DNA from: TPA_inf: Saccharomyces
Lineage: Eukaryota
Direction: 5' to 3'
DNA: 64,000 nucleotides
Assembly (NCBI GenBank): GCA_000146045.2
Contig: BK006942.2
Location: 224,001 to 288,000 of the forward strand
Made by a program: the position numbers and the translations under genes
Part shown: in pieces, positions 6,272 to 24,931 of the stretch
How the letters are laid out: each line of letters opens with the position of its first letter
Position numbering within the stretch: the first letter of the stretch is position 1
The notes under the pieces: model-generated
Databases searched by the model: none
What the model was told of the DNA's origin: nothing
The model's input: the letters and a program-made list of their open reading frames with translations, nothing else

Positions 6272-7072
6272 TTAGTGGAAAAACTTCTTCATCTTTTCCA
6301 ACCAAGAAATATACTCGTTATTCTCTTTGAACTCGGAATATGCACTAATGAAAGAGGCTAGCTCTTCATTGACACCTCTACTTTCCAAATAAGCTTCCAG
6401 AGATTCTTGTAGTTCTTCGTCCAAGTTTGAAAAAGGTGGGCCATGGTATACCAATTCTCTTGTTATTTCGGCCTCAGCAGACTGATTCAAAGCAGCATCA
6501 ACTGAGGGGTATGGAGTAGCACTATCAACATAAAATGAACCTTCCTGTAAATTCATTAGTAATTCAAATGAGACTGCAGGTTCGCTTGCGCTTTCTTTAG
6601 AAATAACAACATTAACGTTGGCAAAGTTGTCTGATAAAGCATCAAAATCATCCTCATTAATGCCGTCTTCATTTTGCTCGGTATTTTCATCCATTGCGTT
6701 GTTGTAAGGCAGATTAGCAATCTGAGCTACGTCAAAAAAAACATGAACTGTTTCGCCTGATTCGGTTCTTCTAACTATTTCAGCTTCATTCTTACCGGGT
6801 GTCTCTACTAATGAGAACTTATATTTGTTCAAAAAGTCATTAAATGAGTCTAACGACGTTGACTCTGGTAACGTTTCCTTCTCAATTTTCAATTCAGATT
6901 GCAAAATATCACCTACTCTTTGGGTCTCTTGGTTCCTCATGATTGCAGCGGGTGTGAAACATCTCTTAGAGTTAGCAACAGTAAAAACTCTCCACGATGA
7001 TTTTACTACGGCTGGCTTGGGCGTAGTCAAAATGCTTCTAGTGACGGCACGGTTAACGCTTCTTAAGAACAT
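6272..7072 (-). CDS. MAM33: MAM33, mitochondrial acidic matrix protein (p32/gC1qR family)
   Basis: 266-aa ORF with a very acidic C-terminal half. ATG verified. Confidence 0.9.
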
Positions 7073-7552
7073 TATTTGTTATTTGTTAGTATATGTGATA
7101 GTTTATGTATCTTTGGTAAATGAAGTTAACCTTTACTAAAATAATGTGTTAACAAAATCGATCCCTATCAACTAAAATGCTCCGGATTGTTGTGCTAAAT
7201 ATCCAATTCGCGTTGGTTTTATTTTACTGGAAAATTGAAGCACCGCCGGGTATTGGTAAAAAGTGTATAACAGGAATCGCAATAGTAATATAAAATAATT
7301 TAACAACATTCATTCGCTCTTCCACCCACTTCTTAATCTTAATACATGATACGATTACTCTTTTTGAAGTTTTGAGGTTTTTGCTTTATAATTATGCAAA
7401 AAAAATTGTTTACGTAGCTGTACAACCTACATAGAAATATGAATTATATTATGAAGGGTTCGATGATGAGGAAATAAAAAGGACAAGATGAACGTCAAAA
7501 AAAAATAGTCGGGGACATAACCGATACAAATATGTGTATACTTGAGAACTTC

Positions 7553-8369
7553 TTAATCAGCGTTACGACGAGCAACCTTTTTGGCCAATCTTTTACCAGT
7601 ACCAAAGATCTTCTTGTCTCTGTTCTTCTTTTGCTTTCTTTGTTGTCTGGAAGCCTTTTCAACCTTTTCAGCCAAACCGTATCTGACTAATCTGTAAGTT
7701 GGTTCGAACTTCTTAGCTTCGGCAACAGAGTTGTAGACCAAACCGAAACCAACAGATTTACCACCACCAAATTGGGTTCTGAAACCGAAAACGGAGACAG
7801 CGTCCTTTTCAGCCTTGTAGACTTCAGCTAATTTTTCACGTAATTCATCCTTGGAGACATTAGCTCTGTTTGGGTGCAAGACGTCAACAACGAATTGCTT
7901 TCTGGCCAACAATGGGTTGGAGATAACCTTTCTGGTACGAATAGTGACAGCGTCAGACTATAAAAAATAAAATGAATGGAAGCAAAGCTCACCAGTCATT
8001 TTTAGCAGAATACGTTAGTAATCTAAACAGAACAATTAATCAGAAAAATAATCCAGAAACATTACAGCAGTACTTTTTTTTTTATTCTTTCCAACCCTGG
8101 GAATTTGTTCTCGCTGATCTTACGTTACTGAGGAATACACAGAATAAATATTAGCATTATTGCAATTCTTGTGTTTTAGCCGTAAAGTCCTTTAACCAAT
8201 TTGTATTTTAAACTTGTGGCACCAAACGTATCACTAGATCTTTTTTGTTGGAAATTTCTCCCGTGATTGTATTGTATTTATACAGCCACCCATAATGCTA
8301 TAACCGGAATAGAGCTTACTTGCAGTCTGTTTCAATTTCTGCTGGTTCAGTACAAGTTCGACATACCAT
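7553..8369 (-). CDS. RPS24B: RPS24B, ribosomal protein S24. Spliced as complement(join(7553..7957, 8367..8369)). Exon 1 is the ATG alone. The intron spans 7958..8366 (409 nt): GTATGT at 8366-8361, TACTAAC at 8010-8004, and a TAG acceptor ending at 7958.
   Basis: Exon 2 translates as [36 protein letters not shown]...RRNAD. An ATGGTATGT is found 409 nt upstream with a canonical branch point. The protein is 135 aa. Confidence 0.93.
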
Positions 8370-20656: not shown

Positions 20657-21559
20657 TCAATAGTCGGGCGCTTCTTTGGGAGCTGGTTGAGACTCTCGAG
20701 TCCGTGAGTTTCTAGATTTATATACAGAAGTAACAGCAGCAGTAGGAGTGGCGGCGGAGAGCAATGGCCTGTTTCCACGGTACCTCGCGTCCAATGTGGA
20801 ACTGCCGTATCTATCAGCGCTATATGCGGAGGAAGAAGTTTCCCTGCGTGGCAGCCTGGGAGCATAATTTCTTTCGGCGGGATTTGATGTACTTGCGCTT
20901 GCAAACCTTCCTGGAAGCCTGCTGTCTCTGTTGGAATAGCCTCTGCCTCCTAGGCCGCCGCCCAATCTTCTTGGCTTGAAATATTTAACGGTTCTGCCTC
21001 TTTCTATGTCGACTATGCAGATTCTGTCTTTGATTTGGATACCTCTGTGTACTCCAATCTCCTTGAATGCCATTTTACTACTTATTGGGTCTTTGAAAAC
21101 TATGAAGGCGTAGCCTTTACTCTTCTGGGTTATCTTGTCCTTGACTATCCTAATTTTTTCGATCTCGCCAAACTTAACAAAATACTTTTGCAGTTCAATT
21201 TCGTCAAGATCGTATGGTAGCCTCCCAATAAATATCGTTCTGTAGGGATCTGTGTCCTTGATATGAGGGTCAACGTTAGGATTCCAATTTTGTAGTCTCC
21301 GGTCTAACAATTGAGCATTTTTGATCTTGGAAAGTTTGATGTCTTCGTATCTTTGGAGATGGTTGTTTGGAGATCCTTCAGGAAACTCCTCCATATAGTG
21401 CTTCAAAGAGGTTGATAGTAAGTTTGCAACGCCAGTGATATTTGGATTTGTTTGTCTCTTCGCATATGGGTAATCGGTTGGTCTTTTGTAAGATAAAGGT
21501 GGCCTTGGCTTGAAAAGTCTCGACACGTCGTCTGGATACTTGGATAGATTATAATTCAT
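20657..21559 (-). CDS. SNP1: SNP1, U1 snRNP 70K protein (RRM: TIFIGRLPYDLDE...KGYAFIVFKD)
   Basis: ATG at 21559 gives 300 aa. The 301-aa tracked ORF starts one codon earlier at a TTG. Confidence 0.92.
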   Translation of the reverse strand: MNYNLSKYPDDVSRLFKPRPPLSYKRPTDYPYAKRQTNPNITGVANLLSTSLKHYMEEFPEGSPNNHLQRYEDIKLSKIKNAQLLDRRLQNWNPNVDPHIKDTDPYRTIFIGRLPYDLDEIELQKYFVKFGEIEKIRIVKDKITQKSKGYAFIVFKDPISSKMAFKEIGVHRGIQIKDRICIVDIERGRTVKYFKPRRLGGGLGGRGYSNRDSRLPGRFASASTSNPAERNYAPRLPRRETSSSAYSADRYGSSTLDARYRGNRPLLSAATPTAAVTSVYKSRNSRTRESQPAPKEAPDY

Positions 21560-22219
21560 CAAGGTTGAGGTGCCGATTACTTTTTTAAGGTTTCCTTTCG
21601 ACAGTCGATGACCGTGCTGTGTGTCATTATCTTGCAGTTCTTTTTTTCTTCAGATGCGTTAATTTCCTACGAAGGGCGCATACAATGGTGCTGATGGGAT
21701 TTATGAGCAAAACAAGTAGGCGAGCAAGACATGAACGAAATTGTAATGAAGCGTACTTCCTTTTCCCTACAACCTTAAAAAGGTCTCACTGATATATCCA
21801 TTCGCAATAATGACAAGATTTTTGCATGGGACTTCTTTTTTTCTTTTGAATAAGTCGCGTTATAAGGACAAAACATTAAAAAAAAATATGTATTGATTCA
21901 CTGATTTATATATACAGAAGTAAGTACCGGGGTACCTAAATATACGCATAAAAGTCTCTTTCTTTTTTTTTTTTTTTTTTTTAGCTTCCTACATTTCGTT
22001 AATAATATTATATAGATTATATTTATATTTAAGAAAAGTAATATCAGCATATTATGAATAGACAAAAAAGTCTAAGGTCAAGATTTATTAAATGTTAGAT
22101 TATTAAGATTACAATTAACAACATTTGTTGTTACTTCATAAAATTTCGTTACTTCATAAAAGAACTACAGTCCCCCACTTCTAAATGAGTGGTTGTAGGG
22201 GTTCATATACCTCCCATAC
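21520..22219. repeat. Copy A of a diverged direct duplication. It covers the SNP1 5' end, the SNP1 upstream region, and an RGI2-like 3' end. It is homologous to 23395..23945.
   Basis: Long colinear matches seen by eye, for example gcgttaatttcctacgaagggcgcatacaatggtgctgatg... versus gtgtttaattatctacaaagagggcacacacaatagagctgatg..., and taagtcgcgttataaggacaaaacattaaaaaaa versus taaggtcgcgttgtgacgacaaaacattaaaaaaa. Identity is about 70-75% by eye, not computed. Confidence 0.7.
22181..22219 (-). pseudogene. RGI2-like C-terminal fragment (...EPLQPLI-stop) truncated by the delta insertion
   Basis: The reverse complement of ctaaatgagtggttgtaggggttc reads EPLQPLI*. This is identical to the last 7 codons of RGI2 at 23902-23925. 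Confidence 0.5.
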
Positions 22220-22552
22220 TGTTGGAATAAAAATCAACTATCATCTACTAACTAGTATTTACGTTACTAGTATATTATCATATACGGTGTTAGAAGATGA
22301 CGCAAATGATGAGAAATAGTCATCTAAATTAGTGGAAGCTGAAACGCAAGGATTGATAATGTAATAGGATCAATGAATATTAACATATAAAATGATGATA
22401 ATAATATTTATAGAATTGTGTAGAATTGCAGATTCCCTTTTATGGATTCCTAAATCCTCGAGGAGAACTTCTAGTACATTCTACATACCTAATATTATTG
22501 CCTTATTAAAAATGGAATCCCAACAATTATCTCAAAATTCACCAACTCTTCA
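22220..22552 (+). mobile_element. Solo Ty1/Ty2 delta LTR, 333 bp (TGTTGGAATA...TCTTCA), flanked by a perfect 5-bp target-site duplication CATAC (22215-22219 and 22553-22557)
   Basis: Recognisable delta sequence including the Gag start ATGGAATCCCAACAATTATCTCA. A TSD is present on both sides. Confidence 0.9.
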
Positions 22553-22826
22553 CATACATACCTGCGGTAGCAAGATAGGTACACTTTTTCTACGTTTCAC
22601 GAAGGTAGCGATAGGTACCTCACTCATTGTAGGTGCGGGGGTAGCGATGGAGGTTTCTGTACCATTACCACCACAGCCACTATACTCACGTAGTGAAGTC
22701 CCTAGCGTGGAATTGTGTGGTATCGTTGCTATCTGTCGTTCGCCACCCTCGGTATATCCAACGTGCAGGCCAATATCACTCTCTAAGAAAATCGTATCAG
22801 GATTGGTACGGACAAACTCTTCATAG
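22392..22826 (+). CDS. YIL060W, a 144-aa ORF that initiates inside the delta LTR. Codons 41-48 are the Ty1 Gag N-terminus MESQQLSQ, and the ORF continues into flanking DNA. Likely an LTR-derived chimeric ORF.
   Basis: ATG verified at 22392. ORF is in frame with the LTR Gag ATG at 22512. YIL059C (22550-22915, minus strand) and YIL058W (22902-23198, plus strand) overlap or abut it and look non-genic. Confidence 0.4.
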
Positions 22827-23394
22827 CCTACGTCGAAATCAAATTCTGCTAAAGCTGTGACTGTAGTTAAACCTAAAACCGCGATTATTGCTTGAAAAAC
22901 TGTGGAGAAATTCATGATGGACGGTCACGTTCAGGGTCTGAGAAAACCACTCATTCCTATGTCCCATGTGGTTGGTTGCAATTTGCTGCTATATATACGA
23001 CTTGGCTGTAGAGAGATCTACGTAGGATGTGTCCACTATCAAGGGGGGTTTACCAACGTTATCTTCTATTTTAAGTGCTCAAATGAAGGTTGCATTATAT
23101 CCCTGGCAGTTTTCCCGGCAATTTTGCCGGCCGCTTATAATAGTCATGGTGAAAGGATTGTTGCTTGTTGTGGTTGCAACATGACAGTTGCCTACTAACT
23201 AAATAATAATCAAAGTCAGTTTCTCAACAATGGAAAACCTGTTGTGACCTTATCGAAGTAACAACATCGTATAATAATTAATCTGGAAAAAATACCATAG
23301 TTACTGCCGATACAGGTCTACGTGACTTACTGACAAACAGACTGAGTGACTACGAGTCCAGAAATTTAGTATACCATATTGTCGCTTCTTCTTA

Positions 23395-23435
23395 TAGCCC
23401 AGCTCCAGGTCTGGATACGGTTCTGTATAACTCGT
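23395..23435 (-). pseudogene. Decayed SNP1 N-terminal fragment with the start codon mutated to ACG; the YPD codons are retained
   Basis: Minus-strand ACCTTAACGAGTTATACAGAACCGTATCCAGAC aligns with SNP1 ACCTTGATGAATTATAATCTATCCAAGTATCCAGAC. Confidence 0.4.
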
Positions 23436-23945
23436 TAAGGTTTAAGTGTCCGGCAATTTTTTTGAAGTTTCATTTCTTCACTCGATGACCAAGCCGTGTG
23501 CCATCTTTTCGTTTTCTTTTTTTTCAATGTGTTTAATTATCTACAAAGAGGGCACACACAATAGAGCTGATGAGAACCCATGAGCGAAACAAGTAGAAAA
23601 GCAAGACGTAAACGGAATCATGGTGGTGTGTACATTTCTCTTTTTTTATTACACCAAGAAAGCTTAATTGGTACGTATTGTTCGTGATAGTAGCATGAAT
23701 CTAGCGTGGAATTCTTTTATTTAAGGTCGCGTTGTGACGACAAAACATTAAAAAAACCACATGTGTTGATTTGTAGACTTGTATACACTCCAGTAAGAAG
23801 GTGCACACCAAAATACATGCGCATATAAATTATTTTATATAGCATGCTATATTTCGTAAATTCATAAAATTTCGTTAATTCATAAAAACAGCTCCCCAAA
23901 CTTAGATGAGTGGCTGCAAGGGTTCTGTCTTGTAATCAACATCTA
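23395..23945. repeat. Copy B of the diverged direct duplication. It covers an SNP1-like 5' fragment, intergenic sequence, and the RGI2 3' end. It is homologous to 21520..22219.
   Basis: See copy A. The two copies are in the same orientation. Confidence 0.7.
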
Positions 23946-24396
23946 CCATTGCGCCATCGTGTTTACATACAACTTCGACAGACACCTTGAATTTCTTGGC
24001 GTTCAACTCCGTTTCTTCGCCATAATTCCAAACAATCCGGTCAAAGGATTCCTGCTTTTTCTTATCGTGGAATTTCAATTCTGGCTTGTTGATAGCGGTT
24101 TTGATGTCCTTTAGCAGGTGCTTCTCAACATGCTGGTGTAAATGGCGAACAAACTTCTTAGAGTGCGAATTGGCAGTCTCTTTGATCTTTTCCGGATCAT
24201 CATGCGCATCATGCAGGACAAAGGGTGGATAGTACTTCAGTTGGCAATGGACATGGTCGAACTCTTGATCTTCCGTCTCACCCTTTAAATATGTTTCAAA
24301 ATCATGCAAATCCTCAAAAACCTTTAAGGACTCACCACTTTTTGTAGTGATGGTGGACATCTTAGGACCCTTTGCTTTCTTATCCTTTTTCGTCAT
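23902..24396 (-). CDS. RGI2: RGI2, respiratory-growth-induced protein
   Basis: 164-aa ORF with ATG verified. Confidence 0.9.
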   Translation of the reverse strand: MTKKDKKAKGPKMSTITTKSGESLKVFEDLHDFETYLKGETEDQEFDHVHCQLKYYPPFVLHDAHDDPEKIKETANSHSKKFVRHLHQHVEKHLLKDIKTAINKPELKFHDKKKQESFDRIVWNYGEETELNAKKFKVSVEVVCKHDGAMVDVDYKTEPLQPLI

Positions 24397-24849: not shown

Positions 24850-24931
24850 GGCACTATGGCCGAGTGGTTAAGGCGACAGACTTGAAATCTGTTGGGCTCT
24901 GCCCGCGCTGGTTCAAATCCTGCTGGTGTCG
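24850..24931 (+). tRNA. SUP17: tRNA-Ser, anticodon UGA, with a long variable arm. Probably SUP17 / tS(UGA)I.
   Basis: Sequence GGCACTATGGCCGAGTGGTTAAGGCGACAGACTTGAAATCTGTTGGGCTCTGCCCGCGCTGGTTCAAATCCTGCTGGTGTCG. It has an A box TGGCCGAGTGG, a B box GGTTCAAATCC, an anticodon loop CTTGAAA, a foldable acceptor stem, and a downstream T-run terminator. Confidence 0.9.

What the first reader, a model, noticed from the sequence alone, without database searches (positions are those of the whole stretch)
21520..23945. Diverged direct duplication of the SNP1-5'/RGI2-3' block, with a delta LTR and the YIL060W/059C/058W ORFs between the two copies
Two segments of about 0.5-0.7 kb (roughly 21520-22219 and 23395-23945) are clearly colinear and in the same orientation, at roughly 70-75% identity by eye. 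Copy A sits next to the real SNP1 and ends in a decayed RGI2 C-terminus (EPLQPLI-stop). Copy B begins with a decayed SNP1 N-terminus (ATG mutated to ACG, YPD codons kept) and ends in the real RGI2. This suggests an old tandem duplication of an SNP1-RGI2 junction block. Reciprocal loss then left one functional copy of each gene, and a Ty1 later inserted into copy A. The poorly supported ORFs YIL060W, YIL059C and YIL058W occupy the decayed middle.
Basis: seen in the sequence. Interest (0 to 1): 0.6.

Follow-up and report, generated by a model that had tools for sequence, protein, structure and literature searches.

The report
Old duplication flanking an inserted gene
Two diverged copies of the short stretch between the yeast genes RGI2 and SNP1 really do flank a small inserted gene (YIL059C); this records an old duplicating insertion that related yeasts never had or have lost, which is an ordinary kind of rearrangement that I did not find described for this locus.

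Summary
The repeat is real. Window 21531-22204 (copy A, next to SNP1) and 23409-23925 (copy B, next to RGI2) are colinear and direct: 66-74% identity, E=3e-50, 106 bits against at most 29 for shuffles. The window is S. cerevisiae chrIX 224001-288000.

- The 0.87 kb between the copies is not decayed SNP1 or RGI2. It is a separate cassette carrying YIL059C, now a Verified secreted-protein ORF, with paralogs beside tRNA genes on chrVII and elsewhere.
- Both breakpoints lie inside the genes: RGI2 codon 158 and SNP1 codon ~108 (shown by S. mikatae, not codon 10). One intact gene therefore remains on each side, and no reciprocal loss is needed.
- S. kudriavzevii, S. arboricola, S. eubayanus and S. 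paradoxus have a single 440-511 bp spacer.
- Copy A branches outside copy B plus S. paradoxus, so the split predates that speciation. S. paradoxus most likely lost the insert by repeat recombination.
- The delta (22220-22552, CATAC duplication) is a later insertion that is polymorphic among strains.
- Divergent Chinese S. cerevisiae carry another haplotype, with a truncated LTR and a 346 bp repeat at 93% identity. The origin of S288C's copy A (old paralog or introgressed block) is unresolved.

Modest interest.

The parts
20657..21559 (-). SNP1 (YIL061C) coding sequence. Its first ~108 codons (21237-21559) belonged to the block that was originally duplicated.
   Evidence: ORF list. Named Snp1p hits at 99%. 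The S. mikatae relic matches window 21337-21237.
21531..22204 (-). Copy A, the SNP1-linked copy. It contains the working SNP1 upstream region, a copy of the RGI2 3' flank, and the RGI2 tail relic. It is deeply diverged ('A-type').
   Evidence: blastn and MAFFT against copy B. The NJ tree places it outside copy B plus S. paradoxus.
21955..22120 (.). AT-rich insertion of about 150 bp and a poly(T) run, found only in copy A.
   Evidence: This stretch is gapped in copy B and in all six other species or strains in the alignments.
22181..22204 (-). Relic of RGI2 codons 158-164 plus the stop codon (EPLQPLI*).
   Evidence: Translation and comparison with 23902-23925. It is absent from the L013-type haplotype.
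22215..22219 (.). Left copy of the 5-bp target-site duplication CATAC.
   Evidence: Sequence. Empty-site alleles L021 and L022 have a single copy.
22220..22552 (+). Solo Ty1/Ty2 delta LTR, 333 bp, with TGTTGG...TTCA ends (listed as YILCdelta3 in the synIX paper).
   Evidence: A 97% identical copy sits beside tV(AAC) in L008. Wacholder and Carvunis call it a Ty2 LTR. It is absent from L013, L021 and L022.
22553..22557 (.). Right copy of the target-site duplication CATAC.
22550..22915 (-). YIL059C, 121 aa, with a signal peptide. Its stop codon TGA is the last 3 nt of the delta.
   Evidence: ORF list. Ribo-seq, mass spectrometry and TargetP evidence in PMC10721188. Changed from Dubious to Verified. 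The ORF is 142 aa or 160 aa in haplotypes without the delta.
22392..22826 (+). YIL060W ORF, antisense to YIL059C. Its first ~54 codons are LTR sequence, including the Ty Gag start [11 protein letters not shown].
   Evidence: ORF translation. It has 0.48 ribo-seq reads per codon against 14 for YIL059C.
22558..23300 (-). Cassette 'Y': YIL059C with its upstream TATA region. It is paralogous to a chrVII segment between MTC3 and VRG4. Bases 22205-22219 are its 3' end, separated from the rest by the delta.
   Evidence: 79.5% identity to L008 and 75.5% to L009 over ~717 bp, with a conserved TATATATAGCAG motif. The paralog is found in L023-L026.
22902..23198 (+). ORF corresponding to the dubious YIL058W, antisense within the YIL059C promoter region.
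   Evidence: ORF list only. No support was found for it as a gene.
23301..23419 (-). Segment 'X', of unknown origin, lying between the SNP1 relic and Y. It includes the 10-mer GTATCCAGAC at 23410-23419.
   Evidence: Present in L013 and S. mikatae but not in the chrVII paralog. It has no other match in the window.
23420..23436 (-). SNP1 relic: codons 1-3 (ACG AGT TAT) fused to codons 106-108 (ACAGAACC).
   Evidence: The S. mikatae relic keeps codons 1-7 and ~78-108 ahead of the same ACAGAACC-GTATCCAGA junction.
23437..23925 (-). Copy B, the RGI2-linked copy. It contains the working RGI2 3' flank plus a relic SNP1 upstream region ('B-type'). It is the ortholog of the single S. paradoxus spacer.
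   Evidence: 83% identity to S. paradoxus, against 70-78% for copy A. Mosaic map and tree.
23902..24396 (-). RGI2 (YIL057C) coding sequence.
   Evidence: ORF list. PF10843 and named Rgi2p hits.
24850..24931 (+). tRNA-Ser(UGA) gene. Ty elements target the upstream side of such genes, which fits the LTR history at this locus.
   Evidence: ARAGORN. It is syntenic in S. mikatae.

Best explanation
The two segments are the flanks of an old duplicating insertion. In the ancestral Saccharomyces arrangement, RGI2 and SNP1 are neighbours on the same strand, separated by a spacer of about 0.45-0.5 kb. Before S. cerevisiae and S. paradoxus separated, a block running from inside the 3' end of RGI2 (codon 158 in the S288C haplotype), through the spacer, to SNP1 codon ~108 became duplicated in direct orientation. 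A foreign cassette came to lie between the copies: X plus Y, where Y is the YIL059C gene with its own TATA region. Both breakpoints are inside the genes, so the outer copies remained intact: RGI2 with copy B as its 3' flank, and SNP1 with copy A as its promoter. The inner ends were truncated fragments from the start, namely the 7-codon RGI2 tail and an SNP1 5' piece that was later shortened by internal deletions. After that, the copies diverged or exchanged sequence by gene conversion, depending on the lineage. S. paradoxus lost the insert and one copy, most simply by recombination between the direct repeats. A Ty delta inserted recently into the 3' end of YIL059C in the S288C lineage. Steps that are shown: the repeat; the single-copy state in outgroups; the position of the breakpoints; the independent origin of the middle; the polymorphic delta; and copy A branching outside copy B plus S. 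paradoxus. Steps that are inferred: a one-step origin (tandem duplication with a captured fragment, or single-crossover integration of a circle carrying the block plus cargo, either of which gives this product); pop-out in S. paradoxus; and use of the duplicated RGI2-type 3' flank as the YIL059C terminator.
For: The repeat is real and significant. There is a single spacer of 511, 477, 440, 457 and 478 bp in S. eubayanus, S. kudriavzevii, S. arboricola, S. paradoxus CBS432 and a second S. paradoxus lineage. The locus is expanded and carries the same SNP1-relic/X/Y junction in S. mikatae IFO1815 (1761 bp) and in divergent Chinese S. cerevisiae (2204 bp). The S. mikatae relic keeps SNP1 codons 1-7 and ~78-108, which places the breakpoint at codon ~108. 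Homology ends abruptly, and Snp1 and Rgi2 show no similarity to the middle. The middle has paralogs at other loci. In the trees, A+B monophyly has 0.8% and 13% bootstrap support, while copy A outside copy B plus S. paradoxus has 67% and 77%. At the sites that distinguish A from B, S. paradoxus carries mainly B states in the central and proximal spacer and a mixture of A and B states in the RGI2-proximal part. Conversion tracts between the copies are visible in L013, L021 and S. mikatae. Empty-site alleles for the delta exist.
Against: Bootstrap support for the key node is only moderate, and the RGI2-proximal part of the spacer is unresolved (91 columns). The S. mikatae locus is partly S. paradoxus-like (SNP1 96.2% to CBS432), so its possession of the insert does not independently date the event before the S. 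mikatae split. The L013-type haplotype and S. mikatae share a truncated LTR joined directly to the second spacer copy and lack the RGI2 tail and the first half of copy A. If that form is ancestral, S288C's full copy A needs a separate explanation. Sequence flanking the structural difference differs by only ~6-7% between S288C and L013. In the L013-type haplotype the two copies are kept 93% alike, which makes it harder to see how A and B drifted to ~30% divergence in one genome.
Confidence: 0.6

Rival explanations
1. S288C's copy A is not a paralog that has resided at this locus since the event. Under this view the ancestral inserted haplotype is the L013/S. mikatae form, with order X-Y-Y'-truncated LTR-second spacer half-SNP1. 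Later, in the lineage leading to most S. cerevisiae, the Y'-LTR-spacer stretch was replaced by a diverged RGI2-3'/spacer block. That block was copied from another lineage's single-copy locus, by introgression or repair in a hybrid. It joined to the end of Y by illegitimate recombination and crossed over near the SNP1 start.
For: L013 and S. mikatae share the same truncated LTR and the same junctions at 82-84% identity, and both lack the RGI2 tail, the first spacer half and the AT-rich insertion. Y' extends 65 bp or more past the S288C junction in L013, S. mikatae and the chrVII paralog, so the S288C junction between Y and the RGI2 tail is secondary. All five differences in the RGI2 tail relic are silent relative to S. 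cerevisiae RGI2, as expected if it was recently part of a working gene. Copy A branches outside copy B plus S. paradoxus. Flank divergence between the two haplotypes is only ~6-7%. Interspecies exchange at this very locus is seen in S. mikatae.
Against: No donor was found. Copy A is only 48-79% identical to every species sampled. The last ~130 bp of A-type sequence before SNP1 is shared by S288C and L013, and the SNP1 coding sequence shows no foreign signal. Compared with S. mikatae RGI2, the tail has one non-silent difference, so the 'all silent' argument depends on the comparator.
Confidence: 0.27
2. A larger tandem duplication contained whole SNP1 and RGI2 genes. Reciprocal pseudogenisation followed, and the middle (YIL058W-060W) is what remains of the decayed copies.
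For: S. mikatae shows that the SNP1 relic was once longer, reaching codon ~108. Y' shows that the S288C junction on the RGI2 side is secondary, so more RGI2 sequence could once have been present.
Against: The non-coding parts of the repeat still align at 66-74%, yet identity drops to background exactly at the breakpoints. Six-frame searches of the middle with Snp1 and Rgi2 give E>1. The middle is homologous to a chrVII segment and to a third locus, and it encodes a translated protein. In both S. cerevisiae and S. mikatae the SNP1 relic ends at the same codon-108/X junction.
Confidence: 0.06
3. The flanking repeats were produced by a mobile element. Y would be cargo of a Ty-associated or retroposition event, with cDNA captured together with LTR sequence. 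The 0.5 kb repeats would be an oversized target duplication.
For: All three Y-family loci lie beside tRNA genes and LTRs. In L013 there is a 30-nt poly(A) run ~190 bp after the ORF, followed by a truncated LTR. The chrVII copy abuts a delta.
Against: The homology between the chrIX and chrVII copies includes the promoter and TATA region upstream of the ORF, and it stops ~115 bp before the poly(A) run. This does not fit a processed transcript. The paralogs share no common termini, and the other two loci have no SNP1 or RGI2 flanks. Ty integration makes 5-bp duplications, not 0.5-0.8 kb ones (established knowledge).
Confidence: 0.1
4. The duplication is recent and specific to S. cerevisiae, and it diverged unusually fast. 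Alternatively, the similarity arises by chance from A/T-rich sequence.
For: Copy A has many unique substitutions (20, 36 and 17 in three sub-regions), most of them derived relative to the outgroups.
Against: A+B monophyly has 0-13% bootstrap support. Copy B is closer to S. paradoxus (83%) than to copy A (65-71%). The same junctions occur in the S. mikatae assembly at 78-84% identity. Shuffles reach at most 29 bits against 106 observed.
Confidence: 0.02

Closest known systems
YIL059C as described by Wacholder and Carvunis 2023 (PMC10721188) and the SGD R64.5.1 update (PMC11430078)
   Same: It is the same gene and locus. [quoted passage not shown]
   Different: They do not mention the flanking duplication of the RGI2-SNP1 block, the SNP1 and RGI2 relics, the chrVII paralog or the alternative S. 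cerevisiae haplotype. Here S. paradoxus has no insert at the syntenic site.
Single-crossover (Campbell-type, YIp-like) integration and direct-repeat pop-out in yeast (established genetics, from my own knowledge)
   Same: The product has the same form: homology block, cargo, homology block, with the flanking genes intact. It is expected to be lost by recombination between the repeats, as inferred for S. paradoxus.
   Different: No circular intermediate is known or testable here, and the event is natural and ancient. A tandem duplication with a captured fragment gives the same structure.
Microhomology-mediated segmental or tandem duplications in S. cerevisiae (e.g. Koszul et al. 2004; Payen et al. 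2008; cited from memory, not checked here)
   Same: These are direct intrachromosomal duplications with breakpoints inside genes, and the junctions sometimes carry inserted or templated sequence.
   Different: Those are laboratory-selected events of tens to hundreds of kb. This one is under 1 kb, is millions of years old, and has a gene cassette at the junction.
Ty1/Ty2 solo LTR insertion (delta; YILCdelta3)
   Same: The 22220-22552 element has the LTR sequence, a 5-bp target duplication and presence/absence polymorphism.
   Different: It is only a late passenger and did not create the 0.5 kb repeats.
Ty1-mediated retroposition of cellular genes (e.g. Schacherer et al. 2004; cited from memory, not checked here)
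   Same: A poly(A) run and an LTR fragment lie downstream of the cassette in the L013 haplotype.
   Different: The promoter is included in the copied segment, and the homology does not run to the poly(A) run.

Membership tests
Direct segmental (tandem-type) duplication | Two colinear copies in the same orientation with similarity above chance. | tested here: met
   E=3e-50; 106 bits against at most 29 for shuffles; five in-register repeat families.
Direct segmental (tandem-type) duplication | Single copy at the orthologous site in outgroup species. | tested here: met
   S. kudriavzevii, S. arboricola and S. eubayanus have spacers of 477, 440 and 511 bp.
Direct segmental (tandem-type) duplication | The copies are each other's closest relatives, i.e. 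they arose in the lineage that carries them. | tested here: not met
   Copy B groups with S. paradoxus, and A+B monophyly has 0-13% bootstrap support. The split is therefore older than the speciation, or copy A is foreign.
Whole-gene duplication followed by reciprocal loss | Recognisable remnants of the lost gene bodies lie between the copies. | tested here: not met
   tblastn of Snp1 and Rgi2 against the insert gives E>1. Only 7 RGI2 codons and a fragment of SNP1 up to codon ~108 are present.
Ty1/Ty2 solo LTR (delta) | An LTR of about 330 bp with TG...CA ends and similarity to other deltas. | tested here: met
   333 bp with TGTTGG...TTCA ends; 97% identical to the delta in L008.
Ty1/Ty2 solo LTR (delta) | A 5-bp target-site duplication and an empty site in other strains. 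| tested here: met
   CATAC on both sides. L021, L022 and L013 lack the LTR; L021 and L022 keep a single CATAC, and the empty-site junction was read directly in L021.
Transposon cargo with target-site duplication | The same element termini, each with its own flanking duplication, at several insertion sites. | tested here: not met
   The chrVII and L020 paralogs share only the ORF core with or without the promoter. They have no common ends and no flanking repeats.
Processed retrocopy (Ty-mediated retroposition) | The copy starts at the transcript, lacks the promoter and ends in poly(A). | tested here: inconclusive
   Poly(A)30 plus an LTR fragment are present in L013. However, promoter and TATA homology is included, and the homology ends 115 bp before the poly(A).
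Whole-genome-duplication ohnolog relic (RGI1/RGI2) | Divergence comparable to WGD pairs, and presence across post-WGD species. | tested here: not met
   Non-coding identity is 66-74%, and three post-WGD Saccharomyces species are single-copy.
Interspecies introgression (for copy A) | Near-identity to a donor species' allele. | tested here: inconclusive
   No sampled species is closer than 79%. S. jurei and other lineages could not be retrieved with these tools.

The most novel reading that the evidence does not exclude
S288C's copy A (22204 to ~21650: RGI2 tail, RGI2-type 3' flank, AT-rich insertion and diverged SNP1 upstream region) may be a piece of an unsampled Saccharomyces lineage's RGI2-SNP1 locus. 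It would have been grafted onto an older LTR-bearing insertion haplotype. If so, the laboratory strain would carry a cryptic inter-species mosaic that supplies both the SNP1 promoter and the 3' end of a young secreted-protein gene. YIL059C itself would belong to a small gene family that moves between tRNA-proximal sites.
Probability: 0.25. Interest if true: 0.5.

Novelty: new member of a known kind. Interest (0 to 1): 0.3.

Why it matters
It gives a concrete structural history for how YIL059C, one of the few 'dubious' yeast ORFs recently promoted to Verified, came to sit between two conserved genes. The cassette is flanked by duplicated regulatory DNA. It lies beside a copy of the RGI2 3' flank and downstream of a relic SNP1 promoter.

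It shows that the published 'homologous locus' in other species is not simply syntenic, because S. paradoxus has no insert at this site.

It warns that deletions of YIL058W-YIL060W remove sequence lying between a functional promoter copy and a functional terminator copy.

It exposes at least two old structural haplotypes and active gene conversion at a locus in the reference genome. The direct repeats also predict spontaneous pop-out deletions. None of this changes a major concept. It is a tidy case study in locus evolution.

Tried and rejected
1. I searched the middle for decayed SNP1 or RGI2 coding sequence, using tblastn with word size 2 and E up to 1000. Nothing scored better than E~1.
2. 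I looked for other copies of X+Y within the 64 kb window and found none.
3. I searched 1.84 billion representative proteins and the 5.8 billion protein set for distant relatives of YIL059C. Only Saccharomyces copies turned up, plus one repetitive 242-aa protein at E=2e-5 that I regard as spurious.
4. My first reading of the delta coordinates (22211-22545) was off by 9 bp and was corrected from the ruler.
5. My by-eye idea that copy A simply retains ancestral states was only partly borne out. Most A-unique states are derived: outgroup bases match the other state 56 times against 23.
6. I tested for a foreign signal or acceleration in the S. cerevisiae SNP1 coding sequence and found none.
7. I considered a retrocopy origin because of the poly(A)+LTR in L013. 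I rejected it as the main model because promoter homology is included and the homology stops before the poly(A).
8. I tried to obtain S. jurei. The candidate SNP1 hits P0092 and P0095 are of the S. uvarum/eubayanus type, and no S. jurei locus was retrievable.
9. A literature search for a described SNP1-RGI2 duplication returned nothing.
10. The S. jurei genome paper reports only a few small S. paradoxus-like fragments and does not list this locus among them.

Full report
WHAT THE WINDOW IS. YIL059C is given as chrIX:246550-246915 in PMC10721188, and the identical ORF lies at window 22550-22915. The window is therefore S. cerevisiae chrIX 224001-288000. All of the following genes are on the minus strand.
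- SNP1: 20657-21559.
- YIL059C: 22550-22915.
- RGI2: 23902-24396.
tRNA-Ser(UGA) lies at 24850-24931 on the plus strand.

The repeat finder returns five in-register direct-repeat families with spacings of 1877, 1877, 1872, 1726 and 1721 bp. blastn aligns 21530-22003 with 23409-23879 (66.4%, E=3e-50) and 22123-22204 with 23849-23925 (74.4%, E=2e-11). The best HSP is 106 bits, against a maximum of 29 for 200 shuffles. Copy A carries about 150 bp of extra AT-rich sequence and a poly(T) run. Its end reads EPLQPLI-stop, like RGI2.

The delta LTR occupies 22220-22552 and is flanked by CATAC on both sides. Two independent S. cerevisiae contigs, L021 and L022, align straight across the site without the LTR. 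In L021 the junction reads as the uninterrupted sequence with a single CATAC. The LTR is therefore a simple, polymorphic, late insertion. It sits in the last codons of YIL059C, supplies that ORF's stop codon, and supplies the first ~54 codons of YIL060W.

THE ANCESTRAL STATE IS ONE COPY. I used SNP1, RGI2 and ARC15 orthologs to fetch loci from other species. RGI2 and SNP1 are adjacent, with a single spacer, in all of the following.
- S. eubayanus: 511 bp.
- S. kudriavzevii: 477 bp.
- S. arboricola: 440 bp.
- S. paradoxus CBS432: 457 bp.
- A second, divergent S. paradoxus lineage: 478 bp.
S288C has 2342 bp between the two genes, or 2004 bp without the delta.

THE MIDDLE IS NOT DECAYED SNP1 OR RGI2. 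Identity falls to background exactly at the ends of the repeat. Six-frame searches of the middle with Snp1 and Rgi2 find nothing (E>1). Instead, about 760 bp of the middle is 75-79% identical to a segment between MTC3 and VRG4 on chrVII. This 760 bp, which I call Y, comprises YIL059C and its upstream region with a conserved TATATATAGCAG motif. The chrVII segment lies beside tV(AAC) and a delta in several S. cerevisiae assemblies, including one genome that also has the chrIX copy. S. paradoxus CBS432 lacks it at that site. A third, 71% identical, start-less copy sits next to the 5' half of a tRNA-Ser-like gene in another contig. YIL059C itself has ribo-seq, mass-spectrometry and signal-peptide support and is now Verified.

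WHERE THE BREAKPOINTS ARE. In the S. mikatae IFO1815 assembly the RGI2-SNP1 interval is 1761 bp and contains the same X-Y insert. Its SNP1 relic has three parts in order:
- 27 bp of SNP1 upstream sequence;
- codons 1-7;
- after a TCCAAG microhomology, codons ~78-108.
It ends ...CCC TAC AGA ACC | GTATCCAGA....

The S. cerevisiae relic is A(C/T)G AGT TAT | ACAGAACC | GTATCCAGAC. That is codons 1-3 fused to codons 106-108 at the same junction. The duplicated block therefore originally reached SNP1 codon ~108 (window ~21237). Their 10-nt identity to SNP1 codons 7-10 is unexplained.

On the other side, the S288C copy starts at RGI2 codon 158. Both breakpoints are inside genes, so the duplication by itself leaves one intact RGI2 and one intact SNP1. 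No reciprocal loss is required.

AGE AND RELATIONSHIPS OF THE COPIES. Copy B is 83% identical to the S. paradoxus spacer. Copy A is only 70-78% identical to S. paradoxus and 65-71% identical to copy B. Neighbour-joining trees rooted with three outgroups give the following.
- Central SNP1-upstream region (213 columns): copy A lies outside the group formed by copy B, S. paradoxus and the S. mikatae second copy (67% bootstrap), and A+B monophyly has 0.8% support.
- Last 95 bp before SNP1: copy A again lies outside (77%), and A+B monophyly has 13% support.
- RGI2-proximal part: unresolved.
At the 153 sites that distinguish A from B, S. paradoxus carries mostly B states in the central and proximal spacer, right up to the SNP1 start, and a mixture of A and B states in the RGI2-proximal part. 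The split of A from B therefore predates the split of copy B from S. paradoxus. The simplest reading of the single B-type spacer in S. paradoxus is loss of the insert and copy A by recombination between the direct repeats. This is inferred, not shown.

A SECOND HAPLOTYPE COMPLICATES THE STORY. Divergent Chinese S. cerevisiae assemblies (L013-L015) are about 98-99% identical to S288C from RGI2 through Y. After Y they differ. They continue into Y' (about 250 bp, homologous to chrVII for another ~65 bp, with a 30-nt poly(A) run). A truncated LTR follows and is joined directly to the last ~20 bp of the RGI2 flank. Then come the SNP1 upstream region and SNP1. This haplotype lacks the RGI2 tail, the first half of copy A and the AT-rich insertion.

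In L013 the direct repeat is only 346 bp long and 93% identical. The second copy is B-type, except for the last ~130 bp before SNP1, which is A-type as in S288C. S. mikatae shares the same truncated LTR and junctions at 82-84% identity. Conversion tracts between the copies are visible in three places: L013 and L021 copy B, the S. mikatae SNP1 relic, and the chrVII copy in strain CFC.

Two things follow. The S288C junction between Y and the RGI2 tail is secondary. And either both structural forms are old, or S288C's copy A was acquired later from a diverged source.

Evidence favouring later acquisition:
- Sequence flanking the structural difference differs by only 6-7% between S288C and L013, against 31% between S288C and S. 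paradoxus.
- All five differences in the RGI2 tail are silent relative to S. cerevisiae RGI2.
Evidence against later acquisition:
- No donor was found; copy A is at most 79% identical to any sampled species.
- A-type sequence next to SNP1 is shared by both haplotypes.
- The SNP1 coding sequence shows no foreign signal.
I leave this open. I give 0.6 to the ancient-paralog version and 0.27 to the grafted-block version.

A CAVEAT ON DATING. The S. mikatae assembly is S. paradoxus-like from the second spacer copy through SNP1 to the SNP1-ARC15 spacer. Its SNP1 coding sequence is 96.2% identical to CBS432 and 89.6% to S288C. The regions from VHR1 to RGI2 and from ARC15 onward follow the species tree. 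The insert in that assembly may therefore have come from a S. paradoxus-related lineage. The event is securely older than the S. cerevisiae/S. paradoxus split, but not securely older than the S. mikatae split.

MECHANISM AND CONSEQUENCES. The product has the form block-cargo-block with intact outer genes. That is what either of two events would give: a tandem duplication that captured a fragment at its junction, or single-crossover integration of a circle carrying the block plus cargo. The data cannot separate these. Ty involvement is suggested by the tRNA-proximal position of all Y copies and by the LTR fragments. The copied segment includes the promoter, however, so a processed-transcript origin is unlikely.

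Functionally, SNP1 uses copy A as its promoter and RGI2 uses copy B as its 3' flank. In the S288C haplotype, YIL059C ends right against a second RGI2-type 3' flank, which probably serves as its terminator (inferred). The synIX design deleted YIL058W-YIL060W.

COMPARISON WITH WHAT IS KNOWN. The gene and its odd phylogenetic distribution are published. The searchable literature contains no description of the flanking duplication, the relics, the chrVII paralog or the alternative haplotype. The phenomenon belongs to well-known classes: small segmental duplication, direct-repeat loss, gene conversion and LTR insertion. I therefore rate it a new member of a known kind, with modest interest.

Noticed in passing
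L010 (S. mikatae IFO1815 chrIX) ~6585-8000; equivalent to window ~21890-20550: About 1.35 kb spanning the SNP1 upstream region, SNP1 and the SNP1-ARC15 spacer is S. paradoxus-like. The SNP1 coding sequence is 96.2% identical to CBS432 and 89.6% to S288C. Flanking genes follow the species tree. This looks like a short introgression tract.
   Followed up: partly
L008 5654-6433 (S. cerevisiae chrVII, between MTC3 and VRG4); also L009 and L023-L026: A paralog of the YIL059C cassette, 75-79% identical at the nucleotide level and mostly pseudogenised, lies beside tV(AAC) and a delta. It is absent at that site in S. paradoxus CBS432 (L012). In strain CFC its ORF core is identical to the chrIX copy, which indicates a gene-conversion tract that restores a 121-aa ORF.
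   Followed up: partly
L020 356-798 and 1120-1152: A third copy of the YIL059C core, 71% identical and lacking a start codon, comes from a synthetic-metagenome contig of unknown species. The contig ends in GGCCGAGTGGTTAAGGCGA, the 5' half of a tRNA-Ser-like gene. All three family members are therefore tRNA-proximal.
   Followed up: no
window 22392-22552 and 22550-22552: YIL060W begins inside the delta LTR and includes the Ty Gag start [11 protein letters not shown]. The YIL059C stop codon is the last three bases of the delta. Without the delta the YIL059C ORF is longer: 142 aa in some S288C-type alleles and 160 aa in L013-type alleles.
   Followed up: yes
window 23410-23419: GTATCCAGAC is identical to SNP1 codons 7(3rd base)-10, but it lies after the codon-108 junction in both S. 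cerevisiae and S. mikatae. It could be coincidence or a short templated insertion from a template switch.
   Followed up: partly
window ~23470-23530 (copy B), compared with L013 4380-4440 and L021: S288C keeps paradoxus-like B-type sequence here, while L013 and L021 carry an A-type tract. This is evidence of gene conversion from copy A into copy B within S. cerevisiae.
   Followed up: yes
L013 5551-5580: A 30-nt poly(A) run lies ~190 bp downstream of the YIL059C homolog, bracketed by an imperfect short direct repeat (GTATAAGTTGTGGC / GTATAACTGTGGC). S. mikatae lacks the ~230 bp between these repeats.
   Followed up: partly
protein tables (non-Saccharomyces genera): Locus-tag numbering suggests that one annotated gene lies between the RGI and SNP1 orthologs in several other genera. 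Examples are NCAS_0E03280/0E03300, KAFR_0L00950/0L00970, Ecym_4324/4326 and HG535_0F03810/0F03830. Its identity was not examined.
   Followed up: no
window 21959-21981: A run of 21 T (poly(A) in gene orientation) sits inside the copy A-specific AT-rich insertion. It is absent from copy B and from all other species.
   Followed up: no
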